Shown: in pieces, positions 1 to 14,219 of the stretch
How the letters are laid out: every line of letters starts with the position of its first letter
How positions within the stretch are numbered: the stretch's first letter is position 1
Source: a virus
Lineage: Duplodnaviria > Heunggongvirae > Uroviricota > Caudoviricetes
Virus record (IMG/VR): IMGVR_UViG_2571042372_000008
Strand: one strand, 5' to 3'
Length of the DNA: 15,717 nt
Program-made: the position numbers and the translations under genes
Notes under the pieces: generated by a model
Seen by the model: the letters and a program-made list of their open reading frames with translations, nothing else
Databases searched by the model: none
Told to the model about the DNA's origin: nothing

Positions 1-1143
1 CTATGCTGTTTTGATATCTACGATAATCCAGTCTTTACCACGATCATCATTGTATCGGTCGGTCATTTTTCTGGATTTATGGCCTAACAACTTTTGCGTA
101 TCCAGACCCTGTTCCCGATATAACCGTTCTGACAGAGATCGCTGCTCATGAAATGTGGGCGCAGTTCCTTGCTCCCATTTTATGCCACATTTTTCCCGGG
201 CCTTTTTAAAAGCCGTTGTCAGAGTATTCGCAGAAACCTGGTCTCCTCTGTTTGCTTGAGAGGTAGTGTGACGGTAATGGACCAGATATTTACTAACAAC
301 AGCATCCCTGCACTGAGATATAACTTCACGAAGGGTAATATTCAGAGCATCGCATTTCAGGTTAAGCGGAATAGCAAGTTTTGAACCGGTTTTTTCCTGA
401 GTAATGTGCAACATGTCGTCCCATATATCAGAGAATTTCAAATTGCAGATATCGCCTAAACGTTGTCCAGTAACAAGAGCAAGTAGCATGCCGCATTTTA
501 AATAGGGCTGCCGTCTGCTTACGCTGTCAAATATTGCCTGCCATTCGGGCAGTGACAATCTTTGGCGGTTTACTCGATTTCGCGGTTGTTTTGTTGCCTG
601 CGCTGGGTTAAATCCTGGCGGAACATGTCCTGCGTGTTGTGCTTCTTTGAAGACGTCGATCAACACCATTCTCACGACTTGCGCCATCCTGTTATGACCT
701 TCAGCCTTTACAGCATCAATTATTTCGGCAATATCAAGTGCGGTAATATCCTTGAGGTGTTGCATTCCACAATGCTCACGGAAAAGACGAATGGGTTTGC
801 CTTTTTGCCGATAGGAGTTGGGTCTTAGTTCATTATGTTGCAGCCTGTCCTCTTGGATAGAAATATATTTATCAAGCCATTCTGTCACCGTAATGTCTGA
901 GCGCCTGCCTTTCATTCTTTCCAGACGCTCATTGACGCTTAATATTTGTCTGGTACGTTGTTCAGCAATAATGGTATTTGCTTCAGTAGCAACTTGTTTT
1001 GCTTCATTCTCATCAGTTCCTAAGCTATGAAAACGACCGGATAGTGGATGTTTGTATTGCCAATATACCTTTCCGGTTCGCTTATCTAATTTGCAATATA
1101 AATTGGGTATAGAGATTTTGTGAGATCGGGGTCTAGCAGCCAT
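1..1143 (-). CDS. int: Phage tyrosine integrase (lambda Int family), complete; stop codon at 1-3
   Basis: 380-aa ORF. N-terminus (MAARPRSHKISIPNLY...) and C-terminal catalytic region (...TFHEQRSLSERLY...LLGHKS...YNDDRG...) match lambda Int from memory. 5' end overlaps xis as in lambda. Confidence 0.9.
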   Translation of the reverse strand: MAARPRSHKISIPNLYCKLDKRTGKVYWQYKHPLSGRFHSLGTDENEAKQVATEANTIIAEQRTRQILSVNERLERMKGRRSDITVTEWLDKYISIQEDRLQHNELRPNSYRQKGKPIRLFREHCGMQHLKDITALDIAEIIDAVKAEGHNRMAQVVRMVLIDVFKEAQHAGHVPPGFNPAQATKQPRNRVNRQRLSLPEWQAIFDSVSRRQPYLKCGMLLALVTGQRLGDICNLKFSDIWDDMLHITQEKTGSKLAIPLNLKCDALNITLREVISQCRDAVVSKYLVHYRHTTSQANRGDQVSANTLTTAFKKAREKCGIKWEQGTAPTFHEQRSLSERLYREQGLDTQKLLGHKSRKMTDRYNDDRGKDWIIVDIKTA

Positions 1144-6162: not shown

Positions 6163-6744
6163 ATGAACAACTCATGGTGGCAGGAACTAATGCATTTTTT
6201 CCTGCAAGGAATGACACTTAAACAGTTGATTCATATGCTAATCATCCTGATCATATTGATTATTGTTATGCCGGTAAGCGTAAAAGAATGGATAAACCTG
6301 CATAATCCAGAAATCCTTCCTCATTACTGGATGTATTACATCCTGTTGTTTTGCGTTAGCTATGTGCTTAACGGCGTTGTTAATTCCGCTTATCACGCTG
6401 TGACTGAAAGAATTGAGGTATTCGCTGCTCAGAAGCGCAAATCTAAAGAAGAAAAATATGTGCAAGATTTGTTTGATTCGTTAACTCTTGGAGAAAGAGC
6501 GTATTTGGCATTCGCTGTAGCCGCTAATAACCAGCTACAAACGGAAAAGGGCGCTCATGAATCAATTTCATTGCTCAAAAAAGGACTCCTCGTTCGAAGG
6601 CCTCCTGCTGTTGGATATCCTGATACCGACCGTTTCGTTATCCCTGAAAGCTATAGACATGAGTGCTACATTAGGTTTGCCGGGAAGGCAGACAGCCTTA
6701 TGGATGAACTTATCGCTCAGGATAAGCATGGCAAAAACAAGTAA
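6163..6744 (+). CDS. sieB: Superinfection exclusion protein B (SieB)
   Basis: 193-aa ORF with a hydrophobic N-terminal segment (LIHMLIILIILIIVMPVSV). Sits on the opposite strand between ral and N, convergent with N, as lambda and Rac sieB do. Confidence 0.8.
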   Translation: MNNSWWQELMHFFLQGMTLKQLIHMLIILIILIIVMPVSVKEWINLHNPEILPHYWMYYILLFCVSYVLNGVVNSAYHAVTERIEVFAAQKRKSKEEKYVQDLFDSLTLGERAYLAFAVAANNQLQTEKGAHESISLLKKGLLVRRPPAVGYPDTDRFVIPESYRHECYIRFAGKADSLMDELIAQDKHGKNK

Positions 6745-6760
6745 TTAGCAAATGAATTTA

Positions 6761-7033
6761 TCATCTCGCCGTCAGTTGTTTTGATTTCCGGTAGCCTGCC
6801 GCGTAAAGAGCTACGTTCGGAAGACAAGTTGAACCTTCATATTTTCTGGTCAACGTTGTCAGAGTTATCACTTCTGCTCTCATTGCTGGTTTGAGCTTGC
6901 ATTGCAAGACCACTCGTGAAGGGGTTGGCCTGTGTAGCTTGTCGGAGCTGATCGCCTCCTGACTTTGCAGATTTGCGCGACGAGCTCTACGGCGAGAAGC
7001 TGCGGTGCCTTTAAATTCTGTTTTTCTGGACAT
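6761..7033 (-). CDS. N: N-type transcription antitermination protein, P22 gene-24-like rather than lambda-N-like
   Basis: 90 aa from the ATG at 7031-7033, with a GGGAGGA Shine-Dalgarno upstream. Arginine-rich motif GTAASRRRARRANL near the N-terminus. C-terminus LPNVALYAAGYRKSKQLTAR resembles P22 N (...VALYAAGHRKSKQITAR) from memory. The track ORF extends 24 codons further upstream, which I reject. Confidence 0.75.
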   Translation of the reverse strand: MSRKTEFKGTAASRRRARRANLQSQEAISSDKLHRPTPSRVVLQCKLKPAMRAEVITLTTLTRKYEGSTCLPNVALYAAGYRKSKQLTAR

Positions 7034-7131
7034 GGATTCCTCCCGAATAAACTTTGGCGATGCAATCTCGAAGCTCCTCCTGAGACGGTTGCTTCGGCAT
7101 TGCATCCCACAGCTTATGTGGTTGGGTGATC

Positions 7132-7177
7132 TGGCTTTTCAGCCACGTAGTCGAGAGTCGACGTTGTTTAAAGAGCC
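7132..7177 (-). promoter_or_regulatory. nutL: boxA plus boxB hairpin
   Basis: Minus-strand reading GCTCTTTAAACAA (boxA-like, plus 7164-7177) followed by CTGGCT-GAAA-AGCCAG (6-bp stem, GAAA loop; plus 7131-7146). Lies between the predicted pL and the N start. Confidence 0.6.
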
Positions 7178-7440: not shown

Positions 7441-7466
7441 AGAAAACCCGGCGCTGAGGCCGGGTT
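7441..7466 (-). terminator. Intrinsic terminator ending the cI operon (timm-like)
   Basis: CCCGGC-GCTGAG-GCCGGG hairpin starting 3 nt after the stop of the 250-aa gene; on the minus strand it is followed by UUUUCU. Confidence 0.6.
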
Positions 7467-7469
7467 GTA

Positions 7470-8222
7470 TTATGCTGCAAGTCTCTTAACCCAAGTCTCT
7501 CTTTTGGAGAATGGTAGAACTTGGCTTGATTCATGGAAGAGTAAGGAGAGTTGTTGCATTTGATCACCAATTGCTTCGCTGTCTATAACAACAAATCTGT
7601 TGTTATACTCCTCACTTGAAGCTTTAAGATCAATTAGTTTCCCAAGCAATGAGTAAGCACTATTCCAGCTTCCTCCGTGTTTCACGCTTGATGTAAAAAC
7701 GTATTTAGGTATGTCGGTTTTTATTGTTACAGGGACGGTAATTTGATGTCCACTCAAGCCATATACGTTTTCACGAAGAGAAAGTGCGTCTCTAAGCTCT
7801 GTGTGATATAGATAATCAATAACCATACTTTCAAACTTTTCAGCTTGAACTGGCTGATACCAGTCTAACGACAAAGTTGATGCGAGTATACCAGCTCTAA
7901 TTATGTTCGATGTAATCGCACCGACATCCTTTTCTGTTGCCCAAGCAATGATTTCTCCTCGAGCATTGAGTTCTGCGCCTTCTTTAAGCAGTAATTGTCG
8001 TATCTCATCAAGTCGTTTTTTGGTAAGCGAGATCCCTCTTGCCTCCATATTCATTAAGGCATCGCATCTGTCACTAACTAAATACCTACCATTGACTTCA
8101 CGGATAAAGGCACCGACATGCTCTCCATCATCACAGTAAGTGAATGGACTGATAATTCTCAAGGTCTTGCCTATTGGATGGCATTCGAAACCTAGTTGTG
8201 AGATCACTGTTGAGCACATCAT
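7470..8222 (-). CDS. Hypothetical protein (250 aa), distal gene of a two-gene cassette in the rexAB-equivalent slot; function unknown
   Basis: ATG-initiated ORF co-oriented with cI. Its ATG overlaps the stop of the upstream 185-aa ORF (ATGA, 8219-8222) and it is followed directly by a terminator. No transmembrane segment or motif I can name. Confidence 0.6.
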   Translation of the reverse strand: MMCSTVISQLGFECHPIGKTLRIISPFTYCDDGEHVGAFIREVNGRYLVSDRCDALMNMEARGISLTKKRLDEIRQLLLKEGAELNARGEIIAWATEKDVGAITSNIIRAGILASTLSLDWYQPVQAEKFESMVIDYLYHTELRDALSLRENVYGLSGHQITVPVTIKTDIPKYVFTSSVKHGGSWNSAYSLLGKLIDLKASSEEYNNRFVVIDSEAIGDQMQQLSLLFHESSQVLPFSKRETWVKRLAA

Positions 8223-8776
8223 ATTCCAAACCCCATTTGCCCCGACTCATCTTCAAGCGGTAAAGGTATTCTCCCAGAGTAAGTTATGTTCAGATGTTTA
8301 CAGAAGTAATTCCAATACCCTACCAGGCCATCTGGGTTTATGTCATCTTCGATTGGAAACGCTATTCTATCACTATAGTATCCAGCTTCTTCATAGTATA
8401 CATGGTAGTGAGCACCGTAAATGATATCTTGGTACTTCGGATGATCGACCTTGTAACTATTCGTGTGTTTGTCAAAGTGATAGGTATCTACCGCGAAAAC
8501 CCTCTTGTTATGATAGAAAGCAATAATATTTATTTTAGGGTAAGAAATCGGGTCATCAGGTTCTGAATCCTGATCTGGTTTCCATTTCAGTTCAAACTTT
8601 AGCCCTTGTATAGGTATACAATCCTCATCCAAGGGGATGATATGGGCTTGTAGCCACATATCAGAGCGACTTGGTTTCTGTTTCCATTTAACGCCAGAAA
8701 AGTTAACTATTTTTTTACAATAAAGTACTTTATCAACTTCTACTTGGCTTGGCTGATAATCATCTATTTTTGCCAA
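8219..8776 (-). CDS. Hypothetical protein (185 aa from a TTG start; 146 aa if the first ATG is used), proximal gene of the two-gene cassette; function unknown
   Basis: ORF begins 39 nt downstream of the cI stop. The only in-frame start before Met40 is a TTG at 8774-8776, preceded by purine-rich AGGGCGG. Tyrosine- and acid-rich (HYHVYYEEAGYY), no hydrophobic segment. Confidence 0.5.
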   Translation of the reverse strand: MAKIDDYQPSQVEVDKVLYCKKIVNFSGVKWKQKPSRSDMWLQAHIIPLDEDCIPIQGLKFELKWKPDQDSEPDDPISYPKINIIAFYHNKRVFAVDTYHFDKHTNSYKVDHPKYQDIIYGAHYHVYYEEAGYYSDRIAFPIEDDINPDGLVGYWNYFCKHLNITYSGRIPLPLEDESGQMGFGI

Positions 8777-8815
8777 TGTTTACCGCCCTGTAAATTGTAG
8801 ATAAAAGTGGTTTCA

Positions 8816-9469
8816 TCACCCAAACGTCTCTTCAGGCCATTGGCTGGCGATAACTTTCCCCACAACGGAACAACTCTCATTGCATGGGATCATTGGGTAT
8901 TGTGGGTTTAGTGGCTGTAGAAACACCTGACCGCTATCCCTGATCAGTTTCTTGAAGGTAAATTCATCACCACCAAGTCTGGCTATGCAGAAATCGCCGG
9001 GCTCAACAGCTTGCTCAGGGTCAACCAGAATTAACATCCCGTCAGGAAAGCTGGGTTTGGAACCTGTTGGTGCGGTCATTGAGTTACCTTCAACCTCAAG
9101 CCAGAATGCAGAGTCACTGGCTTTTTTGGTTGTGCTTACCAATCTCTCCGCATCGCCTTTGGTAAAGGTTCTGAGTTCTGGAGAGAACATCCCAGCCTGA
9201 ACATGAGAAAAAACAGGGTACTCATATTGTTTTTTAACTGGGGCCGATGAGTATTCGCCAACAGGTGAAAATGTCCCGTCGTGGTTGAATGATATGTTAT
9301 CAATACCAAGGTATTTAAACACCACACCAATATCACTAAGAGATGGATGACGAGATCCGCGCAACCAGTGTCCAATCCCACCCTGCGTCATACCTAGCTC
9401 TTCGGCTAACTTCTCTTGAGTTATGCCGAGCTCTTTCATTCTGGATCTAGCCAGTTCATACCATTTCAT
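8816..9469 (-). CDS. cI: CI-type prophage repressor: lambda-identical C-terminal S24 autoprotease/dimerisation domain on a non-lambda N-terminal HTH domain
   Basis: From [20 protein letters not shown]... to ...QWPEETFG the sequence matches lambda cI from memory (one W-to-L change). The N-terminal ~95 aa ([35 protein letters not shown]...) differ. Start placed at the ATG at 9467-9469, 7 nt after an AAGGA Shine-Dalgarno; the track begins 16 codons upstream. Confidence 0.85.
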
Positions 9470-9587
9470 TTTCATGTCCTTATTATTACGCTCTGTACTG
9501 GAACCATCCATGCACAATGTGTATTTTTACTTGTATTCGCAAAGTACATATTGTATTTTTTTTATTCGTGTTTACTATGGAGGGCAT
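9470..9587. promoter_or_regulatory. OR region: divergent pRM/pR promoters and operators
   Basis: Intergenic region between divergent cI and cro. Candidate pR: TTGTAT (9531-9536), 17-nt spacer, TATTTT (9554-9559), then GGAGGG Shine-Dalgarno before the cro ATG. Dyads from TACA/TGTA half-sites. The 11-mer AAAGTACATAT (9541-9551) also occurs in the pL spacer. Confidence 0.5.
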
Positions 9588-9869: not shown

Positions 9870-9944
9870 ATCTGACCAACTAAGGCCATATGCGTTTCCA
9901 CGCATACCTTTCAACTAACTATTCACTATTGGAAATCTTAAGAA

Positions 9945-10241
9945 ATGGAAAGAACAAGTTACAGCAAACTATCACAGCGTGACGTTGATCGCGCAGAAAC
10001 AGATTTACTTATCAATCTGTCAGCTATTACCCAGCGCGGTCTGGCAAAGATGATTGGCTGTCATGAATCGAAGATAAGCAGAACGGACTGGAGATTTATT
10101 GCTTCGGTCTTGTGTGCTTTCGGAATGGCATCAGACATCAGTCCGATTAGCAGGGCTTTTAAGTATGCGCTTGATGGACTCACCAATAAAAAACGCCCGG
10201 CGGCAACCGAGCGTTCTGAACAAATCCAGATGGAATTCTGA
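9945..10241 (+). CDS. cII: CII-like transcriptional activator, chimeric (C-terminal 20 aa identical to lambda CII)
   Basis: 98-aa ORF at the cII position ending LTNKKRPAATERSEQIQMEF, which is the lambda CII C-terminus from memory. The N-terminal ~78 aa differ from lambda. Confidence 0.7.
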   Translation: MERTSYSKLSQRDVDRAETDLLINLSAITQRGLAKMIGCHESKISRTDWRFIASVLCAFGMASDISPISRAFKYALDGLTNKKRPAATERSEQIQMEF

Positions 10242-10261
10242 GGTCATTACTGGATCAATCC
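10185..10261 (-). ncRNA. oop: oop antisense RNA
   Basis: Minus-strand sequence ...GAUUGAUCCAGUAAUGACCUCAGAAUUCCAUCUGGAUUUGUUCAGAACGCUCGGUUGCCGCCGGGCGUUUUUUAUU matches lambda oop RNA from memory, including the terminator GCCGCCGGGCG plus U-run. 5' end approximate. Confidence 0.6.
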
Positions 10262-10273
10262 ACAGGAGTCATT

Positions 10274-10720
10274 ATGACAAATACAGCAAAAATACTCAAC
10301 TTCTGCAGAGGTAACTTTGCCAAACAGGAGCGTAATGTGGCAGATCTCGATGATGGTTACGCCAGACTATCAAATATGCTGCTTGAGGCTTATTCAGGCG
10401 CAGATCTGACCAAGCGACAGTTTAAAGTGCTGCTTGCCATTCTGCGTAAAACCTATGGATGGAATAAACCAATGGACAGAATCACCGATTCTCAACTTAG
10501 CGAGATTACAAAGTTACCCGTCAAACGGTGCAATGAAGCCAAGTTAGAACTCGTCAGAATGAATATTATCAAGCAGCAAGGCGGCATGTTTGGACCAAAT
10601 AAAAACATCTCAGAATGGTGTATCCCTCAAAACGAGGGAAAATCCCCTAAAACGAGGGATAAAACATCCCTCAAATTGGGGGATTGCTATCCCTCAAAAC
10701 AGGGGGACACAAAAGACTGA
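10274..10720 (+). pseudogene. O: Replication initiator O, truncated after codon 148 by IS insertion; stop codon supplied by the IS terminus
   Basis: MTNTAKILNFCRGNFAKQERNVADLDDGYARLSNMLLEAY... matches the lambda O N-terminal domain from memory. The reading frame runs into TGA at 10718-10720, the first three bases of the IS left inverted repeat. Confidence 0.85.
10623..10707 (+). repeat. ori-lambda iterons (four O-binding repeats)
   Basis: Four direct repeats: TCCCTCAAAACGAGGGA (10623-10639), TCCCCTAAAACGAGGGA (10643-10659), TCCCTCAAATTGGGGGA (10667-10683), TCCCTCAAAACAGGGGGA (10690-10707). The AT-rich ori segment that follows in lambda is replaced by the IS. Confidence 0.8.
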
Positions 10721-10771
10721 ACCGCCCCGGGAATCCTGGAGACTAAACTTCCTGAGAAAGAGGTAAACAGG

Positions 10772-11098
10772 ATGACTAAAAATACTCGTTTTTCCCCCGA
10801 AGTCCGTCAACGGGCAGTCCGTATGGTTCTGGAAAGTCAGAGCGAATATGACTCACAATGGGCGACAATTTGTTCCATTGCTCCAAAGATTGGCTGTACG
10901 CCGGAGACTCTGCGTGTCTGGGTTCGCCAGCATGAGCGGGATACCGGGGGCGGTGATGGAGGGCTCACCACCGCTGAACGTCAGCGTCTGAAAGAGCTGG
11001 AACGTGAAAATCGTGAACTGCGCCGCAGTAACGATATCCTTCGCCAGGCTTCCGCTTATTTTGCGAAGGCGGAGTTCGACCGCCTCTGGAAAAAATGA
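10772..11098 (+). CDS. IS3-family transposase OrfA (HTH/leucine-zipper part)
   Basis: 108 aa, [57 protein letters not shown]..., matches IS629 OrfA from memory. Confidence 0.9.
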
Positions 11099-11985
11099 TG
11101 CCACTGCTGGATAAGCTGCGTGAGCAGTACGGGGTCGGACCGCTATGCAGCGAACTGCATATTGCCCCGTCAACGTATTACCACTGTCAGCAACAGCGAC
11201 ATCATCCGGATAAACGCAGTGCCCGTGCGCAGCGCGATGACTGGCTGAAGAAAGAGATACAGCGCGTATACGATGAAAATCACAAGGTATACGGTGTGCG
11301 TAAAGTCTGGCGTCAGTTGTTACGGGAAGGTATCAGAGTGGCCAGATGCACTGTGGCACGTCTCATGGCGGTTATGGGACTTGCCGGTGTTCTCCGGGGT
11401 AAAAAGGTCCGTACGACCATCAGCCGGAAAGCCGTTGCCGCAGGCGACCGCGTAAACCGTCAGTTCGTGGCAGAACGACCTGACCAGCTGTGGGTGGCTG
11501 ATTTTACTTACGTCAGCACATGGCGGGGCTTCGTCTATGTGGCGTTCATCATTGATGTGTTTGCCGGATACATCGTGGGGTGGCGGGTCTCATCGTCCAT
11601 GGAAACGACATTCGTGCTGGATGCACTGGAGCAGGCGTTATGGGCCCGTCGACCGTCCGGCACGGTCCATCACAGTGATAAAGGTTCTCAGTATGTATCG
11701 CTGGCCTACACACAGCGGCTTAAGGAAGCCGGATTACTGGCATCAACAGGAAGTACAGGCGACTCGTATGACAACGCGATGGCGGAGAGCATCAATGGTC
11801 TTTACAAAGCGGAGGTAATACACCGTAAGAGCTGGAAAAACCGTGCAGAAGTGGAACTGGCCACACTCACGTGGGTGGACTGGTATAACAATCGACGATT
11901 GCTGGAAAGGCTGGGCCATACTCCTCCGGCAGAAGCAGAAAAAGCTTATTATGCTTCCATCGGAAACGATGATCTGGCAGCCTGA
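11095..11985 (+). CDS. IS3-family transposase OrfB (DDE catalytic domain)
   Basis: 296 aa in the -1 frame relative to OrfA, overlapping at ATGA (11095-11098). Integrase-core-like region (WVADFTYV...HHSDKGSQY...DNAMAES). Confidence 0.9.
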
Positions 11986-12107
11986 GTTCACAGATAAAAC
12001 ACTCTCCAGGAAACCCGGGGCGGTTCAGAGATAACAATCAACTAATACTGTTTTGTTGATTTTTGCTTGTAATTGGCGTTCTGGTCTGATTTTTGTGGAG
12101 TAAGTTG

Positions 12108-12491
12108 ATGCGTGATATTCAGATGGTTCTTGAGCGTTGGGGTGCGTGGGCGGCTAATAATCATGAAGATGTGACCTGGTCGTCCATTGCCGCCGGTTTT
12201 AAGGGATTAATTCCTTCAAAAGTAAAATCTCGCCCGCAATGTTGTGACGATGACGCGATGATCATTTGCGGGTGCATGGCCCGTCTGAAAAAGAACAACA
12301 GCGATTTACACGATTTATTAGTAGATTATTATGTATGTGGTATGACATTCATGTCACTGGCAAGTAAGCATTGCTGCTCGGATGGTTATATCGGGAAAAG
12401 GTTACAGAAGGCTGAGGGCATAATTGAAGGGATGTTAATGGCATTAGATATCCGGTTAGATATGGATATCGTTGCTAATAATTCTAATTGA
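12108..12491 (+). CDS. Q: Late-gene antiterminator Q (phage 82 / DLP12 QuuD type)
   Basis: 127 aa from the ATG at 12108, preceded by GGAG; the track ORF begins at an upstream [37 protein letters not shown]... matches DLP12 QuuD / Q82-family from memory. Cys-rich segment [12 protein letters not shown]. Confidence 0.8.
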
Positions 12492-12679: not shown

Positions 12680-13762
12680 TTAGAACTGATAAACCAGACC
12701 TACAGCGACGATGTCGTCGGTATCAATACCAGCTGTTTTGGTAAACTTACTATCGTCAATTAAGTTGATTTTGTAATCAACAAAAGTGGACATGTTTTTA
12801 TTAAAGTAGTAAGTAGCACCGACATCGACATACTTGACTAAGTCTCGGTCACCATGAACACCAAGGTCTTTACCTTTTGACTGAAGGTAAGCAACAGATG
12901 GACGCAGACCGAAGTCAAACTGATATTGTGCTACTGCTTCAAAGTTTTGTGCTTTGTTTGCAATATGGTTATTACCAAAAACGGTCATATTCTGAGTTTC
13001 AGAATATGTGGTAGCCAGATAGATATTGTTCGCATCATATTTCAGGCCTGCAGCCCATACTTCCGCATTTTTGCCGGAGGCATTGAATTTGCTCTTACCA
13101 TAGGCGACCTGACCGTCAGTGCGATCTGATTTAGCATAGGTTGCACCCACGCCGAATCCTTCATACTCATAAGTAGTGGAGAAACCGAAACCATCACCAT
13201 TGGCTTCAGTTACGTCAGTGCGGTCATTTTTACCCTGATACTGAGCAGCAAAGTTCAGGCCATCGACCAGACCAAAGAAGTCGTTGTTACGATAAGTTGC
13301 AACACCAGTAGTGCGACCAGTCATGAACACATCTGTTTGGGTCCAGGTATCACCACCGAATTCTGGCAGAACGTCAGTCCACGCACCGATGTCGTATGCT
13401 ACACCGTAGTTACGGCCGTAATCGATTGAGCCGTAATCACCAAATTTCAGGCCTGCAAATGCAAGACGGGTTTTGTCTTTGGAAGAACCTTGAGATTCAG
13501 CACGGTTGCCTTTGAATTCATATTCCCACTGACCGAAACCAGTCAGTTGATCGTTGATTTGGGTTTCACCTTTGAAGCCAAGACGGGCATAAGTAGTATC
13601 ACCATCATCTGCATCATTAGAGGAGAAGTAGTGCTTGGCATTAACTTTCCCGTATAGATCCAGCTTGTTACTGTCTTTATTATAAATTTCAGCTGCCTGA
13701 GCAGACATCGCCATCAGTACTGATGCAGCTACAGCAGAAATTGCCACTGTTAATTTTTTCAT
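12680..13762 (-). CDS. Outer-membrane general porin, OmpC/OmpF/PhoE family (NmpC/Lc-like prophage porin)
   Basis: 360 aa from the ATG at 13760-13762. Signal peptide [23 protein letters not shown] then [16 protein letters not shown]..., and C-terminal ...VAVGLVYQF ending in F, typical of 16-strand porins. Matches DLP12 NmpC / PA-2 Lc from memory. The track ORF extends 20 codons upstream. Confidence 0.9.
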
Positions 13763-14189
13763 TGTACGCCCTTTTTTTGAACTATTATTAAAAAATGATG
13801 TCACTGCGCGATAAATATTCATCTAATCAATGTGATTATTTCAAGATGTAAGTTTTAGTTTCTCATTTAATTTGTGAAGTAGATCTCTATTTTTATCTGA
13901 ACCTTTTCTATCTAATCCTATTCATGGCTCTTGTCTGAACAAAAATAAATCTATTAGCTAATTTATATTAATGGCACTTATTTATAAGTGCTCTATAATT
14001 CTTTAGCTTAATTTAAACAAACTAAAAATAACATCGGAAATTATTAACTGGTTATTTGTTGAAGTTTTCTTATGCATTTGTGGTGGTGTTTTGAACACTC
14101 GGTGGCATTCTCACAAATATCATTTAGTAGTTTACGTACGTAAAAAATTGGTTATGCTGTTAAGAGTGGTTACTTCGTCACACAGCTTA

Positions 14190-14219
14190 AACCCGCCGTC
14201 GAGCGGGTTTTTCCATTTT
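14190..14219 (+). terminator. Candidate intrinsic terminator about 130 nt upstream of the holin gene
   Basis: AACCCGC-CGTCGA-GCGGGTT hairpin (14190-14209) followed by TTTTCCATTTTTT. Confidence 0.5.

What the first reader, a model, noticed from the sequence alone, without database searches (positions are those of the whole stretch)
7470..8776. Uncharacterised two-gene cassette in the rexAB slot of the immunity operon: candidate new anti-phage exclusion module
Two co-oriented ORFs (185 aa, then 250 aa) sit between the cI stop and an intrinsic terminator just before pL/OL. This is where lambda carries rexA-rexB and where, as I recall, 933W carries the Stk kinase, so it is a position expressed in the lysogen with the repressor. 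The genes are translationally coupled (ATGA overlap at 8219-8222) and begin 39 nt after the cI stop. By hand count of four 60-nt lines the cassette is about 35-42% G+C against about 48% in one exo line, consistent with a horizontally acquired moron. Neither protein resembles RexA, RexB, Stk, SieA/B or any family I recognise. Neither has an obvious transmembrane segment, unlike RexB. The first ORF appears to start at TTG. The best hypothesis is a lysogen-expressed superinfection exclusion, abortive infection or toxin-antitoxin-like system.
Basis: partly seen in the sequence, partly recalled or inferred. Interest (0 to 1): 0.86.

Follow-up and report, generated by a model that had tools for sequence, protein, structure and literature searches.

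The report
Untested two-gene defence candidate beside cI
Two overlapping genes sit just after the repressor gene of an E. coli lambda-like prophage, where phages usually carry anti-phage weapons; they are real, conserved and already flagged by two prediction tools as probable defence genes, but nobody appears to have tested them.

Summary
Two minus-strand ORFs, A (8219-8776, 185 aa, TTG start) and B (7470-8222, 250 aa), overlap by ATGA. A starts 39 nt after the cI stop. B ends 3 nt before an intrinsic terminator that is about 98% identical to tM of phage 933W. The cassette is AT-rich (39.7% G+C against 45.1% for the window) and has no membrane segments.

The A-B pair, in that order, recurs in all 14 related loci examined. 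Eleven also have a co-oriented repressor gene upstream; two contigs were too short to show it and one had none visible. These loci run from Enterobacterales to a Pseudomonas phage.

The proteins are not family-less. B has a DUF1828 domain with a type III secretion chaperone-like fold, plus a restriction-endonuclease-fold (PD-(D/E)xK) domain. B matches the PADLOC candidate model PDC-M24B. A has no structural match in the PDB or BFVD viral libraries, carries an invariant D/H/N/HxH cluster, and only faintly resembles DUF6978/PDC-M24A.

DefensePredictor (Science 2026) lists these exact proteins as predicted defence genes, but they were not among its 94 tested units. The canonical nuclease catalytic residues are not conserved in B.

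Verdict: a genuine, unvalidated candidate defence module that has already been flagged computationally. It is also present in E. coli Nissle 1917 prophage 3.

The parts
8816..9511 (-). cI-type repressor gene (HTH_3 + Peptidase_S24), first gene of the maintenance operon
   Evidence: Pfam Peptidase_S24 1.3e-28 and HTH_3 2.1e-10. RefSeq 'LexA family protein' at the equivalent position in Nissle 1917. The longest ORF runs to 9517.
8777..8815 (-). 39-nt cI-A spacer, with no terminator found and a weak purine-rich patch (AGGGCGG) before the TTG
   Evidence: Sequence read directly. The scan found no terminator-like site between cI and A.
8219..8776 (-). Gene A: 185-aa beta-rich protein, TTG start, with no structural match in PDB or BFVD and a conserved D97/H104/N106/G121/H123/H125 cluster; faint link to DUF6978/PDC-M24A
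7470..8222 (-). Gene B: 250-aa protein with an N-terminal DUF1828 domain (YbjN/type III secretion chaperone-like fold) and a C-terminal restriction-endonuclease-fold domain (DUF1829, PD-(D/E)xK clan)
8219..8222 (-). ATGA stop/start overlap coupling A and B
   Evidence: Sequence. The A stop overlaps the B start in all 8 genome loci, as ATGA in 7, and a 4-nt overlap recurs in distant pairs.
7445..7466 (-). Intrinsic terminator ending the cI-A-B transcript (tM homologue)
   Evidence: Terminator scan. About 98% identity to 933W's annotated tM, a sequence shared by about 190 phage records that lack the cassette.
6761..7105 (-). Context: N antiterminator gene downstream of the slot; a boxB-like hairpin at 7133-7144 marks nutL
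   Evidence: Pfam N_peptide 9.7e-33. The boxB-like GGCTGAAAAGCC sequence was located.

Best explanation
The cassette is a prophage accessory operon (a moron) transcribed with the cI repressor from the maintenance promoter and ended by a tM-type terminator. Its two proteins are therefore present in every lysogen. It most likely protects the lysogen against other phages, by abortive infection or superinfection exclusion.

Proposed mechanism (inferred, not shown): A and B form a complex. B uses its chaperone-like DUF1828 domain to bind a protein, either A or a phage product. Its endonuclease-fold domain binds or cuts nucleic acid. A, a small beta-rich protein with an invariant Asp/His/Asn/His-x-His cluster that looks like a metal site, is the second catalytic or regulatory subunit. 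Infection by a heteroimmune phage would release or activate the effector and stop phage development.

What is shown: gene structure, co-orientation, coupling, terminator, conservation of the pair, its position after a repressor in most loci, folds, and family links.

What is inferred: co-transcription from the maintenance promoter, complex formation, the defence function, and which subunit is the effector.
For: Position. The order is cI, a 39-nt spacer, A, ATGA, B, then the tM-like terminator, with no terminator found after cI. The same slot holds rexAB in lambda, bstA in BTP1 and stk in 933W, and is described as a mosaic hotspot next to a highly transcribed prophage promoter.

Modular exchange. 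About 190 phage records, and roughly 800 of the 1,064 matching E. coli records, share only flanking sequence such as the terminator, not the cargo. The cassette is AT-rich compared with its neighbours.

Strict pairing. A is followed by B in 8 of 8 species-representative genome loci, with the A stop overlapping the B start. The same holds for 4 of 4 distant A homologues at 22-32% identity and for Pseudomonas phage phPA-G. A co-oriented HTH or S24 repressor lies upstream in 11 of these 14 loci; two contigs were too short to show it and one had none visible.

Defence predictors. B and all nine relatives scanned match the PADLOC candidate model PDC-M24B (best 1.8e-15). A and its relatives hit only PDC-M24A and DUF6978, weakly. 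DefensePredictor gives log-odds of 5.64 for B and 4.90 for A. By my count from its Table S6, 11 of 28 tested units in the log-odds band 3.6-7.7 gave protection.

Folds. B combines a protein-binding chaperone-like fold with a nuclease fold, an architecture typical of defence effectors such as Can2/Card1.

Retention. The cassette is retained at 99.9-100% identity in defective prophages of this window and of Nissle 1917.
Against: I found no experimental data. The pair was not among the 94 units tested by DeWeirdt et al.. PDC-M24 is itself only a candidate, and I found no paper naming it.

The canonical PD-(D/E)xK catalytic residues are not conserved. The position expected for Asp is H159, K173 is lost in distant members, and no acidic residue in strands 2-3 is invariant. 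Nuclease activity is therefore doubtful.

A has no recognisable enzymatic fold.

About 60% of units with similar prediction scores failed validation.

Being in the repressor operon is also compatible with addiction, lysogeny control or host-fitness roles.
Confidence: 0.58

Rival explanations
1. The pair is a toxin-antitoxin-type addiction module. Its main effect is to stabilise the prophage by killing cells that lose it, and any phage exclusion is incidental. The poorly initiated upstream gene A (TTG/GTG start) would be the low-abundance toxin. B would neutralise it through its chaperone-like domain.
For: The genes are two small, adjacent and overlapping. The non-ATG start of A is conserved in 9 of 12 loci checked, which suggests deliberately low A synthesis. 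The B N-terminal domain has a chaperone-like protein-binding fold. The DUF1829 protein DS-6B was proposed by its authors to act like an antitoxin for a HipA-like kinase. The cassette persists in defective prophages.
Against: Neither protein matches a known toxin or antitoxin family in Pfam, NCBIfam or PADLOC. In classical type II systems the antitoxin is usually the upstream gene. A evolves faster than B (69% against 84% identity in Salmonella; 40% against 51% in Pantoea), which is unusual for a toxin. Many toxin-antitoxin pairs are themselves defence systems, so this rival overlaps the main explanation.
Confidence: 0.17
2. The proteins serve the phage's own life cycle, for example by modulating repressor activity, induction, or processing of phage or host DNA during lysogeny or early induction, rather than acting on competing phages.
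Against: The slot is exchangeable. Closely related lambdoid phages share the flanks but carry unrelated cargo (stk, rexAB, others), so the cargo is not needed for the switch. The same pair is attached to repressors only 34-57% identical to this cI, or not detectably similar. The cassette has the atypical composition of an acquired gene.
Confidence: 0.1
3. It is a host-fitness or virulence moron unrelated to phages, comparable to lambda bor/lom or to the virulence phenotypes once attributed to bstA.
For: It is expressed in the lysogen. It occurs in 239 of 5,426 complete E. coli genomes, including ExPEC, avian, canine and probiotic strains.
Against: Both proteins are cytoplasmic, with no signal peptide noticed on reading the sequences and no membrane segment. 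One has a nuclease fold. Both predictors score them as defence-like. The family tracks phage immunity regions across genera rather than any host niche.
Confidence: 0.08
4. The ORFs are decaying remnants or chance reading frames.
For: The first ORF lacks an ATG start, and the prophage in the window is defective.
Against: Full-length homologues of 183-187 aa and 249-255 aa occur across Enterobacterales, Aeromonas and Pseudomonas phage, with conserved motifs and overlap. The structure models are confident. GTG or ATG sits at the same codon in homologues.
Confidence: 0.02

Closest known systems
PADLOC 'phage defence candidate' PDC-M24 (two genes, M24A + M24B)
   Same: It has the same two-gene layout, with the small protein first and a protein of about 250 aa second. 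B aligns over its full length to PDC-M24B models (4.7e-10; all 10 family members match, best 1.8e-15). A and its relatives hit only PDC-M24A models in the whole PADLOC library.
   Different: The A match is weak and partial (E about 1e-3, C-terminal third only). The A profile retrieved no protein carrying a precomputed DUF6978 annotation. PDC-M24 is an unvalidated candidate with no described mechanism, and I found no paper naming it.
Lambda RexA/RexB
   Same: It occupies the same slot (between cI and the maintenance-transcript terminator, upstream of pL/N). It is a two-gene operon expressed in lysogens, and the position is a hotspot for abortive-infection genes.
   Different: There is no sequence similarity. 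There is no membrane protein, whereas RexB is described as an ion channel. The folds differ.
DS-6 / HipAD of DefensePredictor (DS-6B = DUF3037 + DUF1829)
   Same: It shares the DUF1829 PD-(D/E)xK-clan domain as the C-terminal half of the second gene of a validated two-gene E. coli defence system.
   Different: The partner in DS-6 is a HipA-like kinase and the N-terminal domain is DUF3037. Here the partner is a protein with no structural match in the PDB or BFVD libraries, and the N-terminal domain is DUF1828.
BstA (Salmonella BTP1) and 933W Stk cassette
   Same: Both are cargo of the same cI-downstream slot. BstA is a proven abortive-infection protein. The 933W cassette ends at the same tM terminator sequence as this one.
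   Different: The proteins are unrelated: BstA is a single large protein with an anti-BstA DNA element, and Stk is a eukaryote-like kinase.
CARF-nuclease effectors Can2/Card1 and the restriction enzymes PspGI, NgoMIV and BstEII
   Different: Sequence identity is only 8-12%. The N-terminal domain is chaperone/YbjN-like, not CARF. The catalytic D...(D/E)xK residues are not conserved in the B family.

Membership tests
PADLOC candidate PDC-M24 | Second protein matches the PDC-M24B profile | tested here: met
   PDLC04540 at 4.7e-10, covering residues 2-249 of 250. All 10 family members match PDLC04539, best 1.8e-15.
PADLOC candidate PDC-M24 | First protein matches the PDC-M24A profile (DUF6978-like) | tested here: inconclusive
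   E 1.2e-3 over residues 104-154 only. Three models are hit, by 3, 3 and 1 of 15 relatives, best 2.4e-4. DUF6978 is hit by 5 of 15, all below Pfam's gathering score. The profile search retrieved no protein with a precomputed DUF6978 annotation.
PADLOC candidate PDC-M24 | The two genes are adjacent and co-oriented, A then B | tested here: met
   This holds in all 14 related loci examined.
Pfam DUF1828 / DUF1829 proteins | DUF1828 domain above the gathering score | tested here: met
   33.5 bits against a cutoff of 22, residues 26-110.
Pfam DUF1828 / DUF1829 proteins | C-terminal DUF1829 (PDDEXK clan) domain | tested here: inconclusive
Active PD-(D/E)xK nucleases | Conserved catalytic D ... (D/E)xK residues on core strands 2 and 3 | tested here: not met
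   In the alignment of divergent members, the invariant C-terminal residues are G155, S157, G158, P164, G194 and D198. H159 is nearly invariant, K173 is replaced in distant members, and no strand 2/3 acid is invariant. A variant active site cannot be excluded.
Lambda RexAB | Sequence homology to RexA and RexB | tested here: not met
   There are no such hits in Pfam, PHROGs, NCBIfam or PADLOC.
Lambda RexAB | Membrane-channel subunit | tested here: not met
   No hydrophobic segment was found: maximum 19-residue hydropathy is 0.45 for A and 1.19 for B.
Lambda RexAB | Location between cI and the maintenance-transcript terminator | tested here: met
Type II toxin-antitoxin systems | Recognised toxin or antitoxin domain | tested here: not met
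   There are no such hits.
Type II toxin-antitoxin systems | One product is toxic alone and neutralised by the other | not testable with these tools
   This needs expression experiments.
Validated anti-phage defence system (any) | Reduces phage plating or causes abortive infection when expressed | not testable with these tools
   The pair is not in the tested set of DeWeirdt et al..

The most novel reading that the evidence does not exclude
A and B constitute a mechanistically new defence system. A would be a metal-dependent effector with a fold not seen in the PDB or BFVD libraries. It would be held in check by the type III secretion chaperone-like domain of B, whose degenerate nuclease-fold domain acts as the sensor of phage DNA or protein. 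This cassette would then be the unidentified 'other factor' of prophage 3 that makes E. coli Nissle 1917 fully resistant to lambda and Stx phages.
Probability: 0.2. Interest if true: 0.78.

Novelty: new variant of a known kind. Interest (0 to 1): 0.55.

Why it matters
If the pair is active, it adds a defence system whose first subunit has no known fold and whose second subunit joins a chaperone-like domain to a nuclease fold lacking the usual catalytic residues. The mechanism could therefore be new.

It is carried by 239 of 5,426 complete E. coli genomes. These include the type strain, ExPEC lineages and the probiotic Nissle 1917.

The published explanation for Nissle's resistance to lambda and Stx phages rests on a gene that maps to the cII homologue, and it leaves a further prophage-3 factor unidentified. 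Validation would also give experimental standing to the PADLOC candidate family PDC-M24 and to DUF1828.

The cassette is small (1.3 kb) and self-contained, so it is easy to test.

Tried and rejected
**Sequence searches against solved structures**
- They gave only spurious hits for both proteins: designed propeller and DARPin repeats.

**Fold searches for A**
- Foldseek against the viral structure library BFVD found nothing with E<=0.001.
- The AlphaFold database library was unavailable.

**Homologue searches for A**
- NCBIfam gave no hits for A or B.
- A profile search found only 20 clusters with E<=0.001 among 1.84 billion representatives.
- A second profile round retrieved no protein with a precomputed DUF6978 annotation, so homology of A to DUF6978 stays unproven.

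**Literature**
- Searches for DUF1828, DUF6978, PDC-M24, DUF1829, the WP accessions, the PHROG ids and the phage name PhiR57_1 found no functional study. Only DefensePredictor mentions DUF1829.
- Brenes & Laub 2025 is the source of the temperate PhiR phage panel, to which the cassette-carrying PhiR57_1 and PhiR63_2 appear to belong by name and host. It could not be retrieved by DOI or PubMed id. A validation there cannot be excluded, although the GenBank records of those phages call both genes 'hypothetical protein'.

**Ideas considered and dropped**
- Internal promoters inside A. The scan found fewer promoter-like sites than expected by chance (5 against 6.8).
Full report
**1. What is in the sequence**

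The window is a lambda-like prophage. The gene order is:
- integrase (1-1143, minus strand);
- exo/bet-type recombination genes;
- a sieB-like gene (6163-6744, plus strand);
- N (6761-7105, minus strand);
- the region in question;
- cI (8816-9511, minus strand), then the divergent cro and cII;
- a truncated O replication gene;
- an IS3-family element;
- Q, a porin gene and the lysis genes.

Gene A is 8219-8776 (185 aa, TTG start). Gene B is 7470-8222 (250 aa, ATG start).

- They overlap by ATGA at 8219-8222.
- A begins 39 nt after the cI stop.
- The scan found no terminator-like site between cI and A.
- An 8-bp G+C-rich hairpin followed by a T-rich tail (TTCTTT) lies at 7466-7445, 3 nt after the stop of B.
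- This hairpin is about 98% identical to the element annotated in phage 933W as 'tM; putative terminator for pM transcript'. There it closes the cI-L0084-L0083-stk-L0081 operon.

The inferred transcription unit is therefore cI-A-B-tM. This rests on sequence and on homology to an annotated terminator. It has not been measured.

The cassette is 39.7% G+C (GC3 0.34-0.36). The window is 45.1%, cI 46.3% and exo/bet 52.4%. Neither protein has a hydrophobic segment.

**2. Are these real genes?**

Yes.

- Close homologues of A are all 183-187 aa and begin M-A-K. Homologues of B are 249-255 aa.
- At the start codon of A, eight homologous loci have GTG and three have ATG. TTG is therefore a genuine start, though a weak one. 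The conserved non-ATG start suggests deliberately low synthesis of A.
- The cassette DNA is 99.9-100% identical in the best-matching records. It is complete in 239 of 5,426 complete E. coli genomes, including Nissle 1917 and the type strain ATCC 11775.
- It is also complete in five lambdoid phages: ev017, ev207, PhiR57_1, PhiR63_2 and an Stx1a phage.
- About 190 further phage records, and roughly 800 of the 1,064 matching E. coli records, share only part of the query, such as the terminator, and not the cargo. That is the signature of an exchangeable slot.

**3. Conservation of the pair and of its position**

| Source | Loci | A then B | Repressor upstream |
|---|---|---|---|
| Species-representative genomes (Izhakiella, Yersinia, two Providencia, Xenorhabdus, Pantoea, Thorsellia; one 518-bp contig fragment labelled Actinomadura) | 8 | 8 of 8, the A stop overlapping the B start (ATGA in 7) | 7 of 7 full-length loci; the fragment is too short to show it |
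| Four distant A homologues (22-32% identity) | 5 | all; overlapping or nearly so | 2 (both loci of one homologue, Peptidase_S24); 2 contigs too short to show it; 1 with none visible |
| Pseudomonas phage phPA-G | 1 | yes, 4-nt overlap | yes, CI-like |

- The seven repressors in the genome loci are co-oriented HTH or S24 proteins. They are 34-57% identical to this cI, or not detectably similar.
- The Pseudomonas phage has the order CI-like repressor, a 216-aa ORF, an unannotated A-like ORF with an internal M-A-K start and the same His motifs, then a B homologue at 29.5% identity.
- No A-B fusion was seen.
- A diverges faster than B: 69% against 84% identity in Salmonella, 40% against 51% in Pantoea.

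**4. What the proteins are**

*Protein B.*
- It passes Pfam's threshold for DUF1828.
- Its AlphaFold2 model has pLDDT 84.7 and two domains.
- This agrees with an HHpred table in DeWeirdt et al. 2026, which gives DUF1828 99.5% and DUF1829 98.8%, clan PDDEXK.
- Across divergent members the invariant residues are P26, D32, D51, G89, E90, W121, F130, V134, G155, S157, G158, P164, G194 and D198. H159 is nearly invariant. K173 is not conserved, and no strand 2/3 acidic residue is conserved.
- The classical nuclease triad is therefore not met. The domain may bind nucleic acid or use a variant site.

*Protein A.*
- It is beta-rich, with pLDDT 82.7 and pTM 0.81.
- Its family is small: 20 clusters with E<=0.001 among 1.84 billion representatives.
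- The invariant residues are K22, W31, R92, D97, N106, G121, H123, H125, F158 and P173. H104 is nearly invariant.
- I read the Asp/His/Asn/His-x-His cluster as a likely metal or catalytic site. This is inference.

*Family links.*
- In PADLOC-DB, B and all nine relatives scanned match the candidate model PDC-M24B (4.7e-10 for B; best 1.8e-15).
- A and a few relatives hit only PDC-M24A, weakly (about 1e-3 to 2e-4).
- In Pfam, 5 of 15 A relatives hit DUF6978 below threshold.
- The pair is thus best described as a divergent branch of the unvalidated two-gene candidate PDC-M24. The B link is firm. The A link is probable but unproven.

**5. What is already known**

DeWeirdt, Mahoney and Laub (Science 2026, PMC13092281) list WP_000968518.1 (B, log-odds 5.64) and WP_001062368.1 (A, 4.90). 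Both are labelled 'Predicted novel defense gene' in an E. coli genome of their 69-strain collection and in a wider E. coli set.

- The pair is absent from their Table S6 of 94 tested units and from the validation tables.
- From Table S6 I count 11 validated of 28 tested units with log-odds between 3.6 and 7.7. That gives a base rate of about 40% against 24 phages in MG1655.
- DUF1829 is validated only in DS-6B/HipAD, with a different partner and a different N-terminal domain.
- A validated unit of that study, DS-34, consists of a CI repressor plus a hypothetical protein.
- Owen et al. 2021 describe the cI-to-N interval as a mosaic hotspot that holds rexAB and bstA.
- Brenes & Laub 2025 is the source of the PhiR phage panel and could not be read.
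- No paper in the searchable library treats DUF1828, DUF6978 or PDC-M24 functionally.

**6. Nissle 1917**

The cassette sits in Nissle prophage 3, at icd. Bury et al. 2018 attributed partial resistance to lambda and Stx phages to a cloned 'phage repressor (pr)' gene. They concluded that another prophage-3 factor must exist.

Their cloning and qPCR primers map to window 9899-10261, which is the cII homologue (9945-10241). They do not cover cI or the cassette. The cassette therefore remains an untested candidate for that missing factor.

**7. Mechanism and confidence**

I commit to a lysogen-expressed anti-phage module of abortive-infection or exclusion type, acting as an A-B complex. My confidence that defence is its function is about 0.58.

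This combines:
- the 40% validation base rate;
- the hotspot position and its conservation;
- the strict pairing of the two genes;
- the independent PADLOC candidate call;
- a sensor-plus-nuclease-fold architecture.

The division of labour between A and B is uncertain.
- The weak start codon of A, its putative metal site and the chaperone-like domain of B suggest that A is the effector and B the regulator.
- The faster divergence of A and the nuclease fold of B suggest the reverse.

The rivals are an addiction-type toxin-antitoxin pair (0.17, overlapping with defence), a role in the phage's own switch or DNA handling (0.10), a non-phage fitness factor (0.08) and non-functional ORFs (0.02).

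**8. Verdict**

The cassette is a genuine, compact, conserved candidate with one subunit that has no structural match in the libraries searched. It belongs to a family already flagged by two computational resources, and I found no functional evidence for it.

I rate it a new variant of a known kind (defence cargo of the repressor operon), with interest 0.55.

Noticed in passing
window 9899-10261 (cII homologue 9945-10241, +): The primers Bury et al. 2018 used to clone and quantify the Nissle 1917 'phage repressor (pr, EcN_1294)' map here. The gene reported to give more than 200-fold protection against lambda and Stx phages is therefore the CII-family activator, not the cI repressor. Overexpressed CII pushing infecting phages into lysogeny could explain their result.
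   Followed up: partly
window 10274-12491: The O replication gene is cut to 148 aa by an IS3-family element (orfA 10772-11098, orfB 11095-11985). The Q antiterminator gene follows directly at 12093. P, ren and the nin region, all present in the Nissle 1917 copy, are missing. The prophage is replication-defective, yet it keeps an intact cI-A-B operon.
   Followed up: partly
window 12680-13822 (-) and 13600-14200: A 380-aa Gram-negative porin gene (Porin_1, 2e-151) lies between Q and the lysis genes, as in Nissle prophage 3, where it is annotated ompC. It is followed by a very AT-rich stretch (30-32% G+C). It is possibly a receptor-altering lysogenic-conversion gene.
   Followed up: partly
window 6163-6744 (+): A SieB-family superinfection-exclusion gene (Pfam SieB 2.5e-22; phrog_1301 3e-122) with a strong membrane segment sits just beyond N. 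The immunity region therefore carries a second exclusion gene next to the candidate cassette.
   Followed up: partly
L016 2920-3504 (Pseudomonas phage VB_PaD_phPA-G, PP083311.1): An A-like ORF that overlaps the start of the B homologue by 4 nt is not annotated in the GenBank record. In most homologues gene A starts with GTG or TTG, so gene callers may miss or mis-start this family.
   Followed up: partly
L002 5044-5385, L008 5010-5354, L016 2180-2830: In some relatives an extra unrelated ORF (113, 114 or 216 aa) sits between the repressor and gene A. This suggests the slot can stack several cargo genes.
   Followed up: no
L009 (518-bp contig labelled Actinomadura rugatobispora): This tiny contig encodes the A/B junction with 82% identity to the E. 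coli B protein. In an actinomycete assembly it is most likely enterobacterial contamination rather than a true occurrence.
   Followed up: no
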